This document shows, piece by piece, positions 2-3,829 of a DNA stretch of 3,829 nucleotides. The translations under genes and the position numbers were made by a program. The notes beneath the pieces are model-generated. The model had not been told where the DNA came from. It did no database searches and was given only the letters and a program-made list of their open reading frames with translations. The first letter of the stretch is position 1, and each line of letters opens with the position of its first letter. This stretch comes from Naegleria gruberi (lineage: Eukaryota): assembly GCA_000004985.1 (NCBI GenBank), contig GG739205.1; one strand, 5' to 3'.

Positions 2-334
2 CCAATTTCAATACTAAAATCATACATGGATTTGGTTAGGAATTTCAAAGATGCTGAGTCCCCATTATTTTCCTTCGAAAACGACAAATTCTTTGATTCA
101 GATGGTATTTCAAAGATACTAAAGAATGCAGTGGGTATAGTAGATCAAGGCGTAACAGTCTCAGGTCACAGCCTTAGAATAGGTGCTATCACAGAAGGAC
201 TCAGAAAGGGTATGTCTACAACTGATCTAATGGTCGGTGCAAGACATAAAAAGGAAAAAAGTTTATTTCCTTACCTTAGATCTGAAGGCCTAGCTGGCAA
301 GAATTTCACTAACACTCTATTTTCTCTGGACTAA
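2..334 (+). CDS. 3' (C-terminal) part of a tyrosine site-specific recombinase (phage-integrase family catalytic domain). It is 5'-incomplete: the frame is open back to the window edge at position 2, and the first in-frame ATG is at 26. The stop is TAA at 332-334.
   Basis: The translation contains SGHSLRIGAIT, with the box II His-x-x-Arg at H48/R51 of the 102-aa ORF. H74 sits 23 residues after R51, which is the usual His/Trp III position. The candidate catalytic Y83 lies in PYLRS, 9 residues after H74 and 32 after R51. This R-to-H-to-Y spacing matches XerD-like tyrosine recombinases. The frame upstream of the ATG (PISILKSY) is open to position 2 and stays homologous to the region upstream of ORF2. 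GC is about 40% here against about 20% in the flanks. Confidence 0.7.
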   Translation, partial: PISILKSYMDLVRNFKDAESPLFSFENDKFFDSDGISKILKNAVGIVDQGVTVSGHSLRIGAITEGLRKGMSTTDLMVGARHKKEKSLFPYLRSEGLAGKNFTNTLFSLD

Positions 335-382
335 CCCATTGGTTTATCAACGAAATTCTTTATTGTTTTATTTGGAGAAATA
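334..382 (+). repeat. Direct repeat A1, 49 bp: ACCCATTGGTTTATCAACGAAATTCTTTATTGTTTTATTTGGAGAAATA. It is a perfect copy of 1009-1057.
   Basis: I compared the two copies by eye and they match 49/49. The first base is the last base of ORF1's TAA stop. Flanking sequence diverges immediately on both sides (…CTA|A vs …TCT|A on the left, TGG vs AAC on the right). Confidence 0.9.
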
Positions 383-461
383 TGGCTAGTTGCGAGGAAC
401 GATGCAACGTTAGTATTTCGACAAATTGTAAACAATAAAATTGAGTTGATAAATAATTTTT

Positions 462-532
462 ATGCTCAAAAAAATTAAGAAACATGGTAAACACACCAAG
501 CAAAATCATTGCTGACCCACCCACCCATTCCC
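462..532 (+). repeat. C-element copy 1. It has a 5' ATGCTCAAAAAAA box, a variable middle, and a 3' C-rich end CCCACCCACCCATTCCC. The opposite strand of that end reads GGGAATGGGTGGGTGGG, a four-tract G-quadruplex motif.
   Basis: It shares both of its ends with 1581-1643 and with 3581-3625 (minus strand). It lies 80 bp to the right of A1. It is followed by TTAATTTCATC and then an 8-3-8 palindrome AAGAATTC-CTT-GAATTCTT (544-562). Confidence 0.75.
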
Positions 533-836
533 TTAATTTCATCAAGAATTCCTTGAATTCTTTCAAATAGTCCTTCACTCCTTGAGTGTTTTTTCCTATT
601 TGTCTTTTAGTTTGATCTTGGTAAGTGATCCTTCTAAGGATGCAGGATTTGTATTACCTTGTGATACAATAATTTTTATTTCTAACTAACATCATTTGAA
701 TAATTCGAAATATGCTCGTAAAGTAAGCCAGATTTATTTTTTCAAAAAATATTTCTGATGGAAATTACCAGGCATTTTTTTACAAGCAATTCACTAGTTA
801 AAATAGAGAACTTTAATGGATTGGAGTTTTTACCGA

Positions 837-861
837 TTTTTTCCTGCAATGCAGGTTTTTT
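837..861. other. Short GC hairpin CCTGC-aat-GCAGG (843-855) flanked by T6 on both sides. It looks like a weak bidirectional terminator.
   Basis: The sequence is TTTTTT-CCTGCAATGCAGG-TTTTTT. The stem is only 5 bp with a 3-nt loop. Confidence 0.3.
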
Positions 862-1008
862 ATAGGGGAGTTGTTCTACTTCAATCTCGATTTTGTAAAC
901 AACTTTATTAACTCGGGACAATGCTGAATAAAGTCAATGACCTAAAAGGCAACATTTCCGAGCAACATACCTCATCCTTTGGATGAAGAATATGTTGAGT
1001 GAGCTTCT

Positions 1009-1057
1009 ACCCATTGGTTTATCAACGAAATTCTTTATTGTTTTATTTGGAGAAATA
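1009..1057 (+). repeat. Direct repeat A2, 49 bp, a perfect copy of 334-382. Its last two bases are part of the in-frame TAA (1056-1058) that truncates the ORF2 homology.
   Basis: It is identical over 49 bp to 334-382. It lies 64 bp upstream of the ORF2 ATG. Recombinase-homologous coding sequence begins 1 bp after it, at 1059. Confidence 0.9.
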
Positions 1058-1121
1058 AACTCCTATTGAACCATATCGAGGAAATAAGAAATACTGTCCA
1101 GTTTATAACCTTAGAAGATAC

Positions 1122-1430
1122 ATGGACTATGTTAAACATATTAAGGAAGACGATTCTCCATTATTTTCGTTGATGTTTGATGAATATTTCACTCCTACTC
1201 AAATTTCTAATATTATTTCAAGCTCCATGAGCTCTATTGGTGTTCAAAACACTTCAGGCCATAGCCTTCGTATAAGTGCAGCTACTGAGCTGGCTTCTAA
1301 GGGTGTGTCTCAATCTGTGATTGAGACTGCTGGTAATTGGGTGCCTAATTCAAAAGCTAGATTGAGATATCAACGTAGAATTGGCCTAGCTACTCATGGT
1401 TTAACTACTTCTATTATGAGAACTGATTAA
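1122..1430 (+). CDS. Second, diverged paralogous copy of the tyrosine-recombinase C-terminal catalytic segment (102 codons, TAA stop at 1428-1430). It appears 5'-truncated: protein-level homology to ORF1 continues upstream to about 1059 and is ended by an in-frame TAA at 1056-1058. It may be a gene fragment or pseudogene, or a terminal exon.
   Basis: The translation contains SGHSLRISAATELASKGVSQSVIETAGNWVPNSKARLRYQRR. This gives H47-x-x-R50, then W73 at the His/Trp position 23 residues after the Arg (Trp occupies this position in Cre, Flp and many eukaryotic YRs). Y83 follows 10 residues later in the motif RLRYQR. The ORF is collinear with ORF1 over all 102 residues at roughly 36% identity and ends on the same C-terminal ...D. 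The upstream in-frame translation CPVYNLRRYMDYV aligns with ORF1's PISILKSYMDLV. The box I Arg and Lys regions that should lie further N-terminal are not present before the stop. Confidence 0.55.
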   Translation: MDYVKHIKEDDSPLFSLMFDEYFTPTQISNIISSSMSSIGVQNTSGHSLRISAATELASKGVSQSVIETAGNWVPNSKARLRYQRRIGLATHGLTTSIMRTD

Positions 1431-1510: not shown

Positions 1511-1580
1511 GGGAGTTCTGAACATGGTGAAGAACTAGTGTGTTTTTATACAAAATTATTAAAATATTATTTTAAAAATT

Positions 1581-1643
1581 ATGCTCAAAAAATAGTCTCA
1601 ACATCATGTCATCATTAAGGCAAAGTCCCACCCATACCCACCC
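1581..1643 (+). repeat. C-element copy 2. It starts ATGCTCAAAAAA and ends TCCCACCCATACCCACCC. The complement of that end is GGGTGGGTATGGGTGGG, a G4 motif with loops of 1, 3 and 1 nt.
   Basis: The 5' box and 3' C-rich end are the same as in copy 1, and TTAATT follows in both. It lies 70 bp to the right of B1. This mirrors the A1-to-C1 arrangement. Confidence 0.75.
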
Positions 1644-1971
1644 TTAATTAGTATTTACAATTTTTCAGCCTTTATTTCGCTCATTAGCACCCAGTAAGTG
1701 GGCTAATTTCAGAGTGCGGCTGTGTACATTCAAGATGTGCAATTTTTACATTTATTCACTAACTTATTTTTTGGATGACAGTTTCTAATAGATTCGAATC
1801 ATTTTATTTTTCATTCCATTTGTTTCAGAAAATTCATATAGATTTTTATATATTAATGGTGATTTTAGGAACAGGTTTTACAATTTATTCACATACTCTA
1901 TGTTTTTTCTTATCTTTAGCTTCAAAACTATCGATAAGTTTTTCATAATTTTGAGACTTTAATTTCTAGGG

Positions 1972-2008
1972 ACCTGCTAAATAAAGATTTATATCCTTTA
2001 AAGCAGGT
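1972..2008. other. Stem-loop with a 7-bp stem ACCTGCT/AGCAGGT and a 23-nt AT-rich loop. The 5' arm is part of the motif GGACCTGCTAAATAAAG, which recurs inverted at 3000-3017 as GGACCTGCTGAATAAAGC on the minus strand.
   Basis: The inverted repeat is read directly. The second motif copy matches at 17/18. Both contain AATAAA. Confidence 0.3.
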
Positions 2009-2051
2009 TCCAAGGTTGATTCACCATATGGTGTCTCAATCCTTGAGCTTT

Positions 2052-2103
2052 TAATCCATTTGTCTTAATTTATTATTTTATTATTTTGTGATTTTAAAAA
2101 CAT
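2052..2103 (+). repeat. Direct repeat B2, 52 bp, a perfect copy of 1459-1510.
   Basis: It is identical over 52 bp. Its left flank (CTTGAGCTTT|TA) resembles the left flank of A2 (TTGAGTGAGCTTCT|A). This indicates that the A1..A2 and B1..B2 units are homologous as whole units. Confidence 0.9.
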
Positions 2104-2900
2104 ATAATTTGAAAAATTTATCAAGTGTTGTAGTTAAAATTTAATTTGAGTGTAATAAATCTTTATATGAAAAGCTATAAAAAGTACTTTCTTTATTAGA
2201 GATCAAGTTATCGGCGTTAATTGTCTTAAAAATCAATGTTGTTAAACAACTTCAATCATATTTATTAGAATCTTGATGATACAATTTTTTAGACATACCA
2301 TGTTTACCATTTAATATCGAGTAGTAAAAATATGTAAATTAAAAAAAGGAAAAAATGTTGAGTTTTGGTATTTTTTTAAAAAATGTTTTTTTGAAAAAAA
2401 TTTCGATAAAAACTAGAAATTTATTAGTATTTCAATGAAAAATACGAATTTTCATACATGCGTTGGTGGGATATGTTTGTCATATTAGATATTTAATAAA
2501 AATAAAATAAAAATTTTCGCATGTAAATATATATATATATATATACATCCGAAAAAATTTTTGTTGAAAGTTGGTTTATAAGATGGTGGTTAAATTGGTT
2601 TATCTGAAAAATCATTTAAAAGTGATTTAAATATAAAGATAATGAAATTAATTGAAAATTAAGAAGCTAAAATAAATTTTCAAAAATTTATCGATTTGAA
2701 ATTTAGAAAAGCTTAACAAAGTAATATATAAAATATAAAAAACCATTAATTTTTAAAAATCTTCTAAAGTTGGTATTATCATTATGAAGATTATTGATTG
2801 GAAGTAATAATCTTTATGGTAAATCCAAAGAAAATGAATTCAAAGAAAGAACAAACTTTCTAAAAATATTACAAAAACACTGTTATGTTTCTTAAAAGAA
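2104..2900. repeat. Low-complexity A/T homopolymer-rich tract. It contains many A5-8 and T5-8 runs and a reiterated AAAAAATGTT-like motif at 2345-2400. No ORFs are present.
   Basis: Composition is roughly 85% A+T. Stop codons are dense in all six frames. It follows repeat B2 immediately. Confidence 0.6.
2527..2545. repeat. (AT)n dinucleotide microsatellite of about 9.5 units.
   Basis: The sequence is atatatatatatatatata. A shorter (TA)4 run lies at 1433-1440. Confidence 0.9.
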
Positions 2901-3111
2901 AACCAACAATAAATAAACTAATAGATATAAAGCTCACACTACAACTTCTACCTATTCTTAGGTAGTTTGTAGCCTGGTTACTGCTGTTTTTAGGCATTAA
3001 GCTTTATTCAGCAGGTCCAGAAATTAAATAAACTAATCAATACAATCATACTATGATTTCTTAACAAAAAGCAAAAACTAAACTAAATTAAAGCAATCTG
3101 ACAATAAACCA

Positions 3112-3134
3112 AGTTGTTTTTTGGAGAAACAACT
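3112..3134. other. Hairpin with an 8-bp stem (AGTTGTTT / AAACAACT) and a 7-nt loop TTTGGAG. The loop and 3' side resemble the right end of the A repeat plus A2's flank (TTGTTTTATTTGGAGAAATAAACTCC vs TTGTTTTTTGGAGAAACAACTCCC).
   Basis: The inverted repeat is read directly from the sequence. The similarity to A2 and its flank is about 21/26 after allowing one 2-bp indel. Confidence 0.35.
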
Positions 3135-3141
3135 CCCATAT

Positions 3142-3170
3142 AAAAAAACCTACTCTTGTAGGAAAAAAAA
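3142..3170. other. Short hairpin CCTAC-tctt-GTAGG (3149-3162) flanked by A7 and A8. Its architecture and stem sequence resemble the 843-855 hairpin (CCTRC...GYAGG).
   Basis: The sequence is AAAAAAA-CCTACTCTTGTAGG-AAAAAAAA. The 13-mer AAAAAACCTACTC recurs at 3198-3210. Confidence 0.3.
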
Positions 3171-3273
3171 TCGGTAAAAACCAAAAAGTTAAGAATTAAA
3201 AAACCTACTCAACCGTCTTGACACTTACGAATCAAAACGAGAATGAGAAAAGAGGTATGTTCAGTACATATTG

Positions 3274-3309
3274 CCTTACTAATAGTAAGGGAAAGGTATC
3301 AGATACCTT
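3274..3309. promoter_or_regulatory. Two adjacent perfect 17-bp palindromes: CCTTACTA-A-TAGTAAGG (3274-3290) and AAGGTATC-A-GATACCTT (3293-3309). Each has 8-bp arms and a 1-bp centre. Candidate dimeric protein-binding sites.
   Basis: Both are perfect inverted repeats when read by eye. They are separated by 2 bp. Both arms carry CCTT/AAGG ends. They lie within about 30 bp of the phased direct repeats at 3335-3371. Confidence 0.5.
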
Positions 3310-3334
3310 CTAATCAACATAAAATTGATCTGTC

Positions 3335-3371
3335 GGTTTTAGATCACCAACAATTGGTTTTAGATCACCAA
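3335..3371. repeat. Two perfect 16-bp direct repeats, GGTTTTAGATCACCAA, at 3335-3350 and 3356-3371. The 21-bp phasing equals two helical turns, which is iteron-like.
   Basis: The two copies match exactly. Each contains GATC. They lie directly downstream of the twin palindromes. Confidence 0.8.
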
Positions 3372-3580
3372 TCATGATAAAAAACATCAATAAATGATGT
3401 CAAATATCAAATAATAATACAAAGATAAAAAGATGATAACAATCATCTTTCAATAATACAAATAGAGTGAAATCTTTCAATCAATTGAGAAAATATTTGA
3501 GGATTGATTAAAAAATCACATTCTAAAGTATTAAGGACAAAGGTTAGAACCTTTGATTTGAATAAACTAATAATAATAGA

Positions 3581-3625
3581 GGGTGGGCAAGGGTGGGACC
3601 ATAGTATGACAATTTTTTTGAGCAT
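3581..3625 (-). repeat. C-element copy 3, in inverted orientation. The minus strand reads ATGCTCAAAAAAATTGTCATACTATGGTCCCACCCTTGCCCACCC. The plus strand carries GGGTGGGCAAGGGTGGG, a G4 motif.
   Basis: It has the same 12-bp 5' box and the same CCCACCC-N3-CCCACCC end, with a shorter middle. It is followed on the minus strand by an 8-2-8 palindrome (plus strand 3538-3555, CAAAGGTT-AG-AACCTTTG). Confidence 0.7.
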
Positions 3626-3681
3626 ACTTTCTATTATTAGTTTATTCAATTGTTGTTTTCAAGAAACACTACTTTATCTCA

Positions 3682-3829
3682 GTAAACTTCGATAAGAACA
3701 GAAATATCAAAGAATGTGGAAGAGATAAGGTAGTTTAAACCCTTCTCAGCGTAAGAACTTGTAATACTACTCAATCCGCTTCTATGGAATAGGTTGAAAA
3801 ATAGCAAAAGATAAACGCCACCAATATTT
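3682..3829 (-). CDS. Possible 3' end of a minus-strand gene that runs off the right edge of the window. There are 49 open codons ending in TGA (plus-strand 3679-3681). The product is unknown.
   Basis: An open 49-codon stretch is unusual in this stop-rich AT background. Local G+C is about 38%, higher than the surrounding non-coding DNA. The translation is ...NIGGVYLLLFFNLFHRSGLSSITSSYAEKGLNYLISSTFFDISVLIEVY*. I recognise no motif in it. Confidence 0.2.

What the first reader, a model, noticed from the sequence alone, without database searches (positions are those of the whole stretch)
2..1430. Two tandem, same-strand, deeply diverged copies of a tyrosine-recombinase catalytic C-terminus
ORF1 and ORF2 align over all 102 residues with no net length change. 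Both end in ...D and both keep H-x-x-R, then a His or Trp 23 residues later, then a Tyr 9-10 residues after that. They are only about 36% identical, so this is an old duplication, not a recent one. Both copies have remained open over the catalytic segment. The spacing R to H/W (23) and to Y (32-33) is what XerC/D, Cre and Crypton/DIRS-type YRs show. That is established family knowledge. The assignment here rests on motif reading alone.
Basis: partly seen in the sequence, partly recalled or inferred. Interest (0 to 1): 0.6.

Follow-up and report, generated by a model that had tools for sequence, protein, structure and literature searches.

The report
Two broken tyrosine-recombinase retrotransposon tails
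The two look-alike recombinase fragments are real, but they are not a duplicated gene: they are the tail ends of two different families of a known kind of jumping gene (DIRS-order, PAT-like retrotransposons) in the amoeba Naegleria gruberi, with one copy ending exactly where the other is cut off, which is ordinary repeat DNA.

Summary
ORF1 (2-334) and ORF2 (1059/1122-1430) are homologous: 36.5% identity, BLASTP E 3e-15. Both keep H-x-x-R, then H/W 23 residues later, then Y 9-10 residues after that.

The window is a 3,829-bp Naegleria gruberi contig. ORF2 is the annotated 'predicted protein' XP_002668215.1.

A profile of ten full-length (~300 aa) relatives scores ORF2 at 141 bits and ORF1 at 123 bits, both matching only the last ~110-125 positions. 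In the closest relatives of each ORF, the recombinase gene overlaps by 4 nt the end of an RT/RNase H/Dam-like methyltransferase ORF, which follows a gag-like ORF. That is the layout of a DIRS-order retrotransposon.

In the window each fragment is followed by a perfect short direct repeat pair: 49 nt at 334-382 and 1009-1057, and 52 nt at 1459-1510 and 2052-2103. The pairs enclose about 540-630 nt. Relatives carry the same 'B-A-B' split-direct-repeat tail, and one full-length relative also repeats A at its 5' end.

Element 1 ends at 1057, and ORF2's homology begins at 1059. So ORF2 is a 5'-truncated pseudogene lacking the box I Arg and the Lys.

This is not an old tandem gene duplication. It is a new member of a known kind, and interest is low.

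The parts
2..334 (+). Element 1: C-terminal fragment of a tyrosine-recombinase gene (ORF1; equivalent to profile positions 195-302 of 306), cut by the contig edge; stop TAA at 332-334
   Evidence: 122.6 bits vs family profile; 52% identity to P0005 residues 193-300; 61% to the L005 recombinase; H48-R51, H74, Y83
334..382 (+). Element 1: proximal copy (B1) of a 49-nt split direct repeat, starting at the last base of the stop codon
   Evidence: D2, 100% identical to 1009-1057; E 2e-15
383..1008 (+). Element 1: 626-nt inter-repeat segment (A2 plus following sequence). Holds the inverted B-like arm at 414-453 and the conserved motif TTATGCTCAAAAAA...CCCACCCACCC at 460-538
   Evidence: (I1, D6, D18)
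1009..1057 (+). Element 1: distal copy (B2) of the 49-nt repeat, taken as the 3' terminus of element 1
   Evidence: Homology of the next element's recombinase gene to L001 starts at 1059
1059..1430 (+). Element 2: 5'-truncated tyrosine-recombinase pseudogene (ORF2 = XP_002668215.1; equivalent to residues ~182-302 of a 302-aa enzyme). Lacks the box I Arg and the Lys; stop at 1428-1430
   Evidence: PF00589, 27.3 bits; 58% identity to P0152 residues 182-301; 141.3 bits
1459..1510 (+). Element 2: proximal copy (B1) of a 52-nt split direct repeat
   Evidence: D1, 100% identical to 2052-2103
1511..2051 (+). Element 2: 541-nt inter-repeat segment with the hairpin arm and the motif TTATGCTCAAAAAA...CCCACCCATACCCACCC at 1579-1649
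   Evidence: (318-473 is colinear with 1445-1592)
2052..2103 (+). Element 2: distal copy (B2), taken as the 3' terminus of element 2
   Evidence: L002 shares the first 39 nt
2869..3685 (-). Third, degenerate tail of the same kind on the opposite strand: inverted B-like arm at 3627-3685, motif at 3569-3625, A-like body, B2-like end at 2869-2932. No recombinase coding sequence is detectable beyond it
   Evidence: 1533-1655 vs 3674-3569 at 67%; 826-875 vs 3181-3128 at 85%; 1958-2087 vs 3028-2894 at 64%; 2869-2932 vs 3685-3627 at 74%; (no recombinase match on the minus strand)

Best explanation
The window is a small repeat-rich contig of Naegleria gruberi. It holds the 3' ends of two diverged families of DIRS-order tyrosine-recombinase retrotransposons, most like PAT-type elements. 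Those elements have gag, then a pol ORF with RT, RNase H and a Dam-like methyltransferase, then the recombinase, then a tail with split direct repeats. A third, degenerate tail lies on the other strand.

Shown: ORF1 and ORF2 are the last ~110-125 codons of the two elements' recombinase genes. Each is followed by short repeat B1, about 540-630 nt, and an identical repeat B2. Element 1's B2 ends at 1057, and element 2's recombinase homology begins at 1059, at codon ~182 of ~302.

Inferred: element 1 integrated into the recombinase gene of a resident element 2, or else abuts a 5'-truncated copy. In life such elements are transcribed and reverse-transcribed, and the cDNA is integrated by the recombinase through R-K-H-R-W/H-Y chemistry. 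The repeated B/A junction reconstitutes the joined ends. Element 2's copy is dead. Whether element 1 is intact cannot be seen.
For: Source and annotation. ORF2 is XP_002668215.1 (NAEGRDRAFT_76874), and its contig is 3,829 bp, the same length as the window.

Recombinase identity: PF00589, 27.3 bits; 141 and 123 bits against a profile of ten full-length relatives, matching only positions 176-302 and 195-302; R142, K172, H249, R252 invariant and W275, Y285 nearly invariant in that family; best solved-structure match is Cre over H-x-x-R...W...Y.

Retrotransposon context of the closest relatives: in L003 the recombinase gene 2813-3721 overlaps by 4 nt a 668-aa RVT_1 ORF; in L005 a 642-aa ORF with RVT_1 and Dam lies just upstream; RVT_1 83.7 bits in both; Dam E 6e-4 and 2e-5; gag-like ORF 44-958 in L003; L087 has gag, pol and recombinase in that order.

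Tail architecture: perfect 49-nt and 52-nt repeat pairs; L009: a 72-nt pair 611 nt apart, starting 22 nt after the recombinase match; L011 and L012: a 99-nt pair 637 or 666 nt apart, plus a direct A repeat 5,419 nt upstream; L011 carries gag, RT+Dam at 31.2 bits, and the recombinase; published Ngaro order is A-pol-B-A-B; PAT elements have an MT domain and split direct repeats.

Truncation: homology to L001 starts at 1059; L001 carries ARPGDLADLSW and GHKTD directly upstream of TPIEPY; another N. gruberi copy, XP_002669236.1, has the upstream part.

Literature. Piednoel et al. 2011 (PMC3266345) reported 7 degenerate DIRS1-like copies in 6 families in N. gruberi.
Against: No RT, gag or 5' terminal repeat lies in the window itself. 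The retrotransposon assignment rests on relatives 52-67% identical in the recombinase, all on short metagenome or SRA contigs.

The 5' A repeat was seen only in a distant relative (about 25% recombinase identity, L011/L012). There it covers only 187 nt of the 538 nt between B1 and B2.

The Dam-like matches of the two nearest relatives fall below Pfam's cut-off.

The published assignment for N. gruberi is DIRS1-like, not PAT-like.

Nested insertion cannot be told apart from simple juxtaposition, because the sequence upstream of element 1 is missing.

Perfect identity over 49-52 nt says little about age.
Confidence: 0.85

Rival explanations
1. The elements are DIRS1-like in the strict sense (inverted terminal repeats plus an internal complementary region) rather than PAT-like with split direct repeats. 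B1 and the nearby inverted B-like arm would then be the internal complementary region, and the following segment the right inverted repeat.
For: Piednoel et al. assigned the N. gruberi copies to DIRS1-like by TBLASTX. Each B1 is followed about 30 nt later by an inverted B-like arm (343-382 vs 414-453; 1472-1575 is self-complementary). An inverted A-like copy lies at 2869-3685. Pol carries a Dam-like domain, as in DIRS1.
Against: B1 and B2 are perfect direct repeats, whereas the inverted arm is only about 70-78% complementary. The inverted copy at 2869-3685 is only about 64-85% similar to elements 1 and 2 and has its own B-like ends, so it is a separate element. In L087 the conserved motif of the A segment lies in direct orientation just upstream of gag. 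The full-length relatives L011 and L012 have a direct A repeat and no inverted repeats.
Confidence: 0.1
2. It is an old tandem duplication of a cellular or Crypton-type tyrosine-recombinase gene.
For: The two homologous fragments are on the same strand, 36% identical, with the catalytic motifs retained in both.
Against: Each fragment is closer to a different RT-linked family than to the other fragment. Each has its own repeat tail. ORF2 is truncated exactly at the end of the other element's terminal repeat. Full-length relatives encode about 300 aa and overlap a pol ORF.
Confidence: 0.03
3. It is an assembly artefact. The short exact repeats caused reads from different loci to be mis-joined, so the adjacency of the two fragments is not real.
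For: The contig is a tiny unplaced scaffold (3,829 bp) made almost wholly of repeats.
Against: The element 1 / element 2 junction (1057 to 1059) is not inside a shared repeat. The 49-nt repeat is not otherwise part of element 2's family (L001 and L003 read through with coding sequence). The same tail geometry is seen on independent contigs.
Confidence: 0.05

Closest known systems
PAT-like elements (PAT, TOC, kangaroo; DIRS order)
   Same: A recombinase gene sits at the 3' end. Pol carries RT, RNase H and a Dam-like methyltransferase in relatives. The tail has split direct repeats in the order ...B-A-B, with A repeated directly at the 5' end in the full-length relative.
   Different: No phylogeny against reference PAT sequences was made. 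The 5' A copy was not seen for the two window families. In L011 the A repeat fills only part of the segment between the B copies. A long hairpin across the B/A junction is conserved here; I did not find it described in the papers I read.
DIRS1-like elements (Dictyostelium DIRS-1 and relatives)
   Same: Same gene set (gag, RT/RH/MT, recombinase). The published assignment of the N. gruberi copies is DIRS1-like. [quoted passage not shown] The window holds three element tails within 3.8 kb.
   Different: No inverted terminal repeats or perfect internal complementary region were found. The repeats here are direct.
Ngaro elements
   Same: A-pol-B-A-B repeat order and a recombinase at the 3' end.
   Different: Ngaro and VIPER lack the methyltransferase domain. 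Relatives of the window's elements have a Dam-like region.
Cre recombinase (phage P1) and XerC/D
   Same: Same catalytic segment, G-H-S-x-R...G-x-W...Y. Cre is the best solved-structure match of the family profile (E 4e-6). The spacings of 23 and 32-33 equal those of Cre (R292, W315, Y324) and XerD (R247, H270, Y279); those residue numbers are from general knowledge.
   Different: The match covers only about 44 residues. The window fragments lack the N-terminal two thirds of the enzyme.
Crypton DNA transposons
   Same: A eukaryotic tyrosine recombinase of the same superfamily.
   Different: Cryptons carry no RT. The nearest relatives of both ORFs are fused to a pol ORF by a 4-nt overlap.

Membership tests
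Tyrosine recombinase (PF00589, Cre/XerD type) | Box II H-x-x-R, then H/W, then the Tyr nucleophile, at canonical spacing | tested here: met
   ORF1 has H48, R51, H74, Y83. ORF2 has H47, R50, W73, Y83. These align with the H249, R252, W275 and Y285 columns of the family (invariant or nearly so) and with the Cre segment.
Tyrosine recombinase (PF00589, Cre/XerD type) | Significant match to the family profile | tested here: met
   ORF2 scores 27.3 bits on PF00589 against a cut-off of 27.1. ORF1 has no Pfam hit on its own, but scores 122.6 bits against the profile of full-length relatives, which themselves hit PF00589 at up to 47 bits.
Tyrosine recombinase (PF00589, Cre/XerD type) | Box I Arg and beta-hairpin Lys present, i.e. 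a complete catalytic domain | tested here: not met
   ORF2's frame is closed at 1056-1058 and the upstream sequence is the other element's repeat. Relatives carry RPGD and GHKTD there. For ORF1 the region lies beyond the contig edge and cannot be tested.
DIRS-order tyrosine-recombinase retrotransposon | Recombinase gene linked to gag and an RT/RNase H pol ORF | tested here: met
   The window has no upstream sequence, so this was tested on the closest relatives only: L003, L005, L006, L087 and L011. RVT_1 scores 83.7 bits, and the pol and recombinase ORFs overlap by 4 nt.
PAT-like (split direct repeats plus MT) | Split direct repeats: A...B-A-B | tested here: inconclusive
   The 3' half is met twice in the window (B1/B2 100% identical) and in L009, L011 and L012. 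The 5' A copy is outside the window. It was seen only in the distant relatives L011/L012, and is hinted at by the direct-orientation motif at the 5' end of L087.
PAT-like (split direct repeats plus MT) | Methyltransferase-like domain after RNase H in pol | tested here: inconclusive
   PF05869 Dam scores 24.8 bits (L005) and 19.9 bits (L003), both below the 28.1 cut-off, and 31.2 bits (L011), above it.
PAT-like (split direct repeats plus MT) | Phylogenetic grouping of RT or recombinase with reference PAT elements | not tested
DIRS1-like | Inverted terminal repeats and a perfectly complementary internal region | tested here: not met
   The repeats are direct. The inverted B-like arm is only about 70-78% complementary. 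L011 and L012 have no inverted repeats. Limitation: the 5' ends of the window's own elements were not seen.
Ngaro / VIPER | No methyltransferase domain in pol | tested here: inconclusive
   Dam-like matches in relatives argue against this, but two of the three are below the cut-off.
Crypton | Recombinase-only DNA transposon with no RT | tested here: not met
   The nearest relatives of both ORFs are directly linked to RT ORFs.

The most novel reading that the evidence does not exclude
The conserved long imperfect hairpin that straddles the B/A junction is seen in element 1, element 2 and L009, with the junction at the base of the apical stem. The 8-nt junction spacer seen in L011 may belong with it. 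On this reading the hairpin is the site where the recombinase acts, or where the cDNA is circularised, in split-direct-repeat elements. Element 1's end inside element 2's recombinase gene would then reflect a preference for inserting into resident copies, building DIRS-type clusters in Naegleria as at Dictyostelium centromeres.
Probability: 0.15. Interest if true: 0.4.

Novelty: new member of a known kind. Interest (0 to 1): 0.2.

Why it matters
It matters mainly for annotation. XP_002668215.1 (NAEGRDRAFT_76874) is a dead transposon fragment, not a host gene, and the 'duplication' is repeat clutter. There is a minor point for transposon specialists. The N. gruberi tyrosine-recombinase retroelements were previously called DIRS1-like from degenerate copies. 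Here they show a split-direct-repeat (PAT/Ngaro-type) tail, a conserved junction hairpin and a conserved leader motif. These features could help define their ends and classification in Heterolobosea.

Tried and rejected
Rfam at E<=1 found only chance miRNA-like hits in the (TA)n palindrome at 2508-2563. No tRNAs were found.

A word-based protein search with ORF1 found nothing; only the exhaustive profile search reached its relatives.

I looked by eye at a ciliate-code read-through of the TAA stops. I dropped it because the 49-nt repeat falls in different frames after ORF1 and before ORF2.

A possible third recombinase C-terminus on the minus strand at 3700-3829 looked plausible by eye. The family profile gives no match there, so it was rejected.

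I looked for gag coding remnants in the inter-repeat segments. tblastn with four gag proteins gave only noise (E > 1).

The end of B2 read in ORF2's frame (FYLEK) resembles the FYLLEK found upstream in P0005. I judged this a chance five-residue match.

Look-ups of the N. gruberi proteins P0154 and P0158 found no record on file, so no DNA context was returned. The full genomic copy on the 189,881-bp scaffold could therefore not be read.

The contigs L003, L004, L005 and L087 are too short to show terminal repeats.

Full report
What is in the sequence.

The window is AT-rich: 19-38% G+C. It has two same-strand 102-codon ORFs, at 26-334 and 1122-1430. ORF1's frame is open from base 2, so it runs off the contig edge. 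ORF2's frame is open only from 1059, directly after a TAA at 1056-1058.

The two translations are homologous. BLASTP gives 34% identity over 112 columns, E 3e-15. A global alignment gives 38/104 identical, and 0 of 2000 shuffles reach the score.

The motif reading of the first stage is exact:
- ORF1 has H48-x-x-R51, H74 and Y83.
- ORF2 has H47-x-x-R50, W73 and Y83.
- So R to H/W is 23 residues, and H/W to Y is 9 or 10.

Where it comes from.

ORF2 is identical to a 'predicted protein' of Naegleria gruberi (XP_002668215.1, NAEGRDRAFT_76874). Its contig is 3,829 bp, the same length as the window. ORF1 is not in the protein collection.

Is it a tyrosine recombinase?

ORF2 just reaches Pfam's PF00589 threshold: 27.3 bits against 27.1, E 3.7e-6. 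ORF1 alone does not.

An exhaustive profile search with ORF1, ORF2 and one relative found 315 proteins. Among them were ~300-aa proteins whose last ~110 residues match. I aligned ten of these. In that family R142 (RPGD), K172 (GHKTD), H249 and R252 are invariant, and W275 and Y285 are nearly so. That is the full R-K-H-R-W-Y set.

A profile of that alignment scores ORF2 at 141.3 bits over positions 176-302 of 306. It scores ORF1 at 122.6 bits over positions 195-302. The same profile's best match among solved structures is Cre recombinase, across G-H-S-x-R...G-x-W...Y (E 4e-6).

So both are genuine tyrosine-recombinase C-termini, but only C-termini.

What kind of recombinase gene?

The two ORFs belong to different sub-families:
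- ORF2 is 58% identical to residues 182-301 of P0152 and 67% identical to P0002.
- ORF1 is 52% identical to residues 193-300 of P0005, and 61% identical to the recombinase of L005.
- Both values are well above the 36% between the two ORFs.

The contigs that encode these relatives show the context:
- In L003 the recombinase gene (2813-3721) overlaps by 4 nt a 668-aa ORF. That ORF has RVT_1 at 83.7 bits, a weak RNase H-like RVT_3 match and a Dam-like region. A 304-aa gag-like ORF precedes it.
- L005 and L006 have the same layout, with RVT_1 at 83.7 bits and Dam at E 2e-5.
- L087 has gag, pol and recombinase in that order.
- L011, a more distant full-length relative, has gag, RT+Dam (31.2 bits, above the cut-off) and the recombinase.

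This is the gene set of DIRS-order retrotransposons (definitions in PMC3266345). That paper already lists N. gruberi with 7 degenerate copies in 6 families.

The tails.

Each recombinase fragment in the window is followed by a perfect short direct repeat pair:
- After ORF1: 49 nt at 334-382 and 1009-1057.
- After ORF2: 52 nt at 1459-1510 and 2052-2103.

The pairs enclose 626 and 541 nt. The two tails are colinear and weakly similar to each other: 318-473 against 1445-1592.

The same geometry occurs in relatives:
- L009 has a 72-nt pair 611 nt apart, starting 22 nt after the recombinase match. It begins ACCCATTAGT..., compared with ACCCATTGGT... in element 1.
- L011 and L012 have a 99-nt pair 637 or 666 nt apart.

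In L011 and L012 the first 187 nt (140+ nt in L012) after the proximal repeat recur as a direct repeat 5,419 nt upstream, in front of gag. No inverted repeats are found.

This is the 'A-pol-B-A-B' split-direct-repeat arrangement described for Ngaro (PMC3783388) and for PAT elements, which also carry the methyltransferase domain. I therefore file the elements as PAT-like, with moderate confidence. Three points limit it: the 5' A copy of the window's own families was not seen, the Dam matches of the nearest relatives are sub-threshold, and no phylogeny with reference elements was possible.

Why ORF2 is only a fragment.

Element 1's distal repeat ends at 1057. DNA homology of element 2 to its relative L001 starts at 1059.

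In L001 the codons directly upstream of TPIEPY read on into ...ARPGDLADLSW...GHKTD..., which are the box I Arg and the Lys. Another N. gruberi copy of the same family, XP_002669236.1 (328 aa), also has them.

So element 2's recombinase gene is cut at about codon 182 exactly at the terminus of element 1. The simplest reading is that element 1 inserted into a resident element 2. A 5'-truncated element 2 lying next to element 1 cannot be excluded, because the sequence upstream of element 1 is missing.

Either way this is not a tandem gene duplication, and ORF2 cannot encode an active enzyme.

The rest of the window.

A third tail of the same kind lies on the minus strand at 2869-3685. It has recognisable counterparts of the inverted arm, the conserved motif, internal blocks and the distal repeat, at 64-85% identity to elements 1 and 2. 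No recombinase coding sequence is detectable beyond it.

Between it and element 2 lies 2104-2868. This stretch is about 19-25% G+C and has no ORFs. It holds a (TA)n palindrome at 2504-2565.

The contig thus holds three transposon tails and an AT-rich spacer.

Things noticed.

(i) In element 1, element 2 and L009 a long imperfect hairpin spans the B/A junction. The z-scores are -4.95, -3.62 and -4.22. With three sequences, 10 of 30 consensus pairs show double changes. That is suggestive but thin, given the AT-rich sequence.

(ii) The motif ATGCTCAAAAAA lies 69-86 nt after the junction in all three window tails and in L009. In L087 it lies 8 nt upstream of the gag ATG, in direct orientation. In the window an ATG and Pro/Thr codons (the CCCACCC runs) follow it, resembling the L087 gag start. 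The motif is probably a leader or start-region element. Its direct orientation also argues for direct rather than inverted 5' repeats.

Verdict.

The recombinase assignment is correct. The 'old tandem duplication' reading is wrong. The sequence consists of dead fragments of already known types of mobile elements in a genome where such elements were already reported. It is a new member of a known kind, of low general interest and of some use for annotation and for defining the ends of Naegleria elements.

Noticed in passing
window 343-453 and 1490-1556; L009 567-660: A long imperfect hairpin straddles the junction between the short repeat (B) and the following segment (A) in three diverged elements. 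The junction sits at the base of a small apical stem-loop. DNA-fold z-scores are -4.95, -3.62 and -4.22, and 10 of 30 consensus pairs show double changes among only three sequences. It may be the recombination or circularisation site.
   Followed up: partly
window 460-538 (+), 1579-1649 (+), 3569-3625 (-); L009 688-698; L087 22-34; L001 66-76 (-): The conserved motif (T)ATGCTCAAAAAA lies 69-86 nt into the A segment. In the window an ATG and CCCACCC..CCCACCC (Pro/Thr codons) follow it. In L087 the motif lies 8 nt upstream of the gag start codon in direct orientation. It is probably a leader or gag-start element of these retrotransposons.
   Followed up: partly
window 2869-3685 (-): A third, degenerate tail of the same element type lies on the opposite strand, tail-to-tail with element 2. 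No recombinase coding sequence is detectable next to it.
   Followed up: partly
window 1122-1430: ORF2 is annotated in GenBank/RefSeq as a host 'predicted protein' (EFC35471.1 / XP_002668215.1, NAEGRDRAFT_76874), although it is a truncated transposon fragment. The related model XP_002669236.1 reads part of the gene in the wrong frame (LNHKEEIRNTVQFITLED is the +1 frame of PIEPY...CPVYNLRRY).
   Followed up: partly
window 2104-2868: A very AT-rich spacer (about 19-25% G+C) without ORFs. It holds a (TA)n run and a 33-nt palindrome at 2504-2565, which gave chance miRNA-like Rfam hits.
   Followed up: no
L002 1-663: In a metagenome contig, a degenerate copy of element 2's family (89% nt identity) abuts an ORF ending in a C-x2-C...H-x4-C pattern. 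From memory this pattern is typical of the C-terminus of non-LTR retrotransposon ORF2 proteins. It may be another case of transposons inserting into each other. No profile search was run on it.
   Followed up: no
L011 8067-8074: In the full-length relative, 8 nt (CGGAGTAT) lie between the proximal B repeat and the A repeat. They are absent from both element termini. Their size fits a tyrosine-recombinase crossover (overlap) region.
   Followed up: no
L011 7361-7912; L012 4661-5212: An array of 54-nt tandem repeats (5-7 copies) plus an 84-nt pair lies between the recombinase stop and the proximal B repeat of the distant relative. The window's elements have no such array.
   Followed up: no
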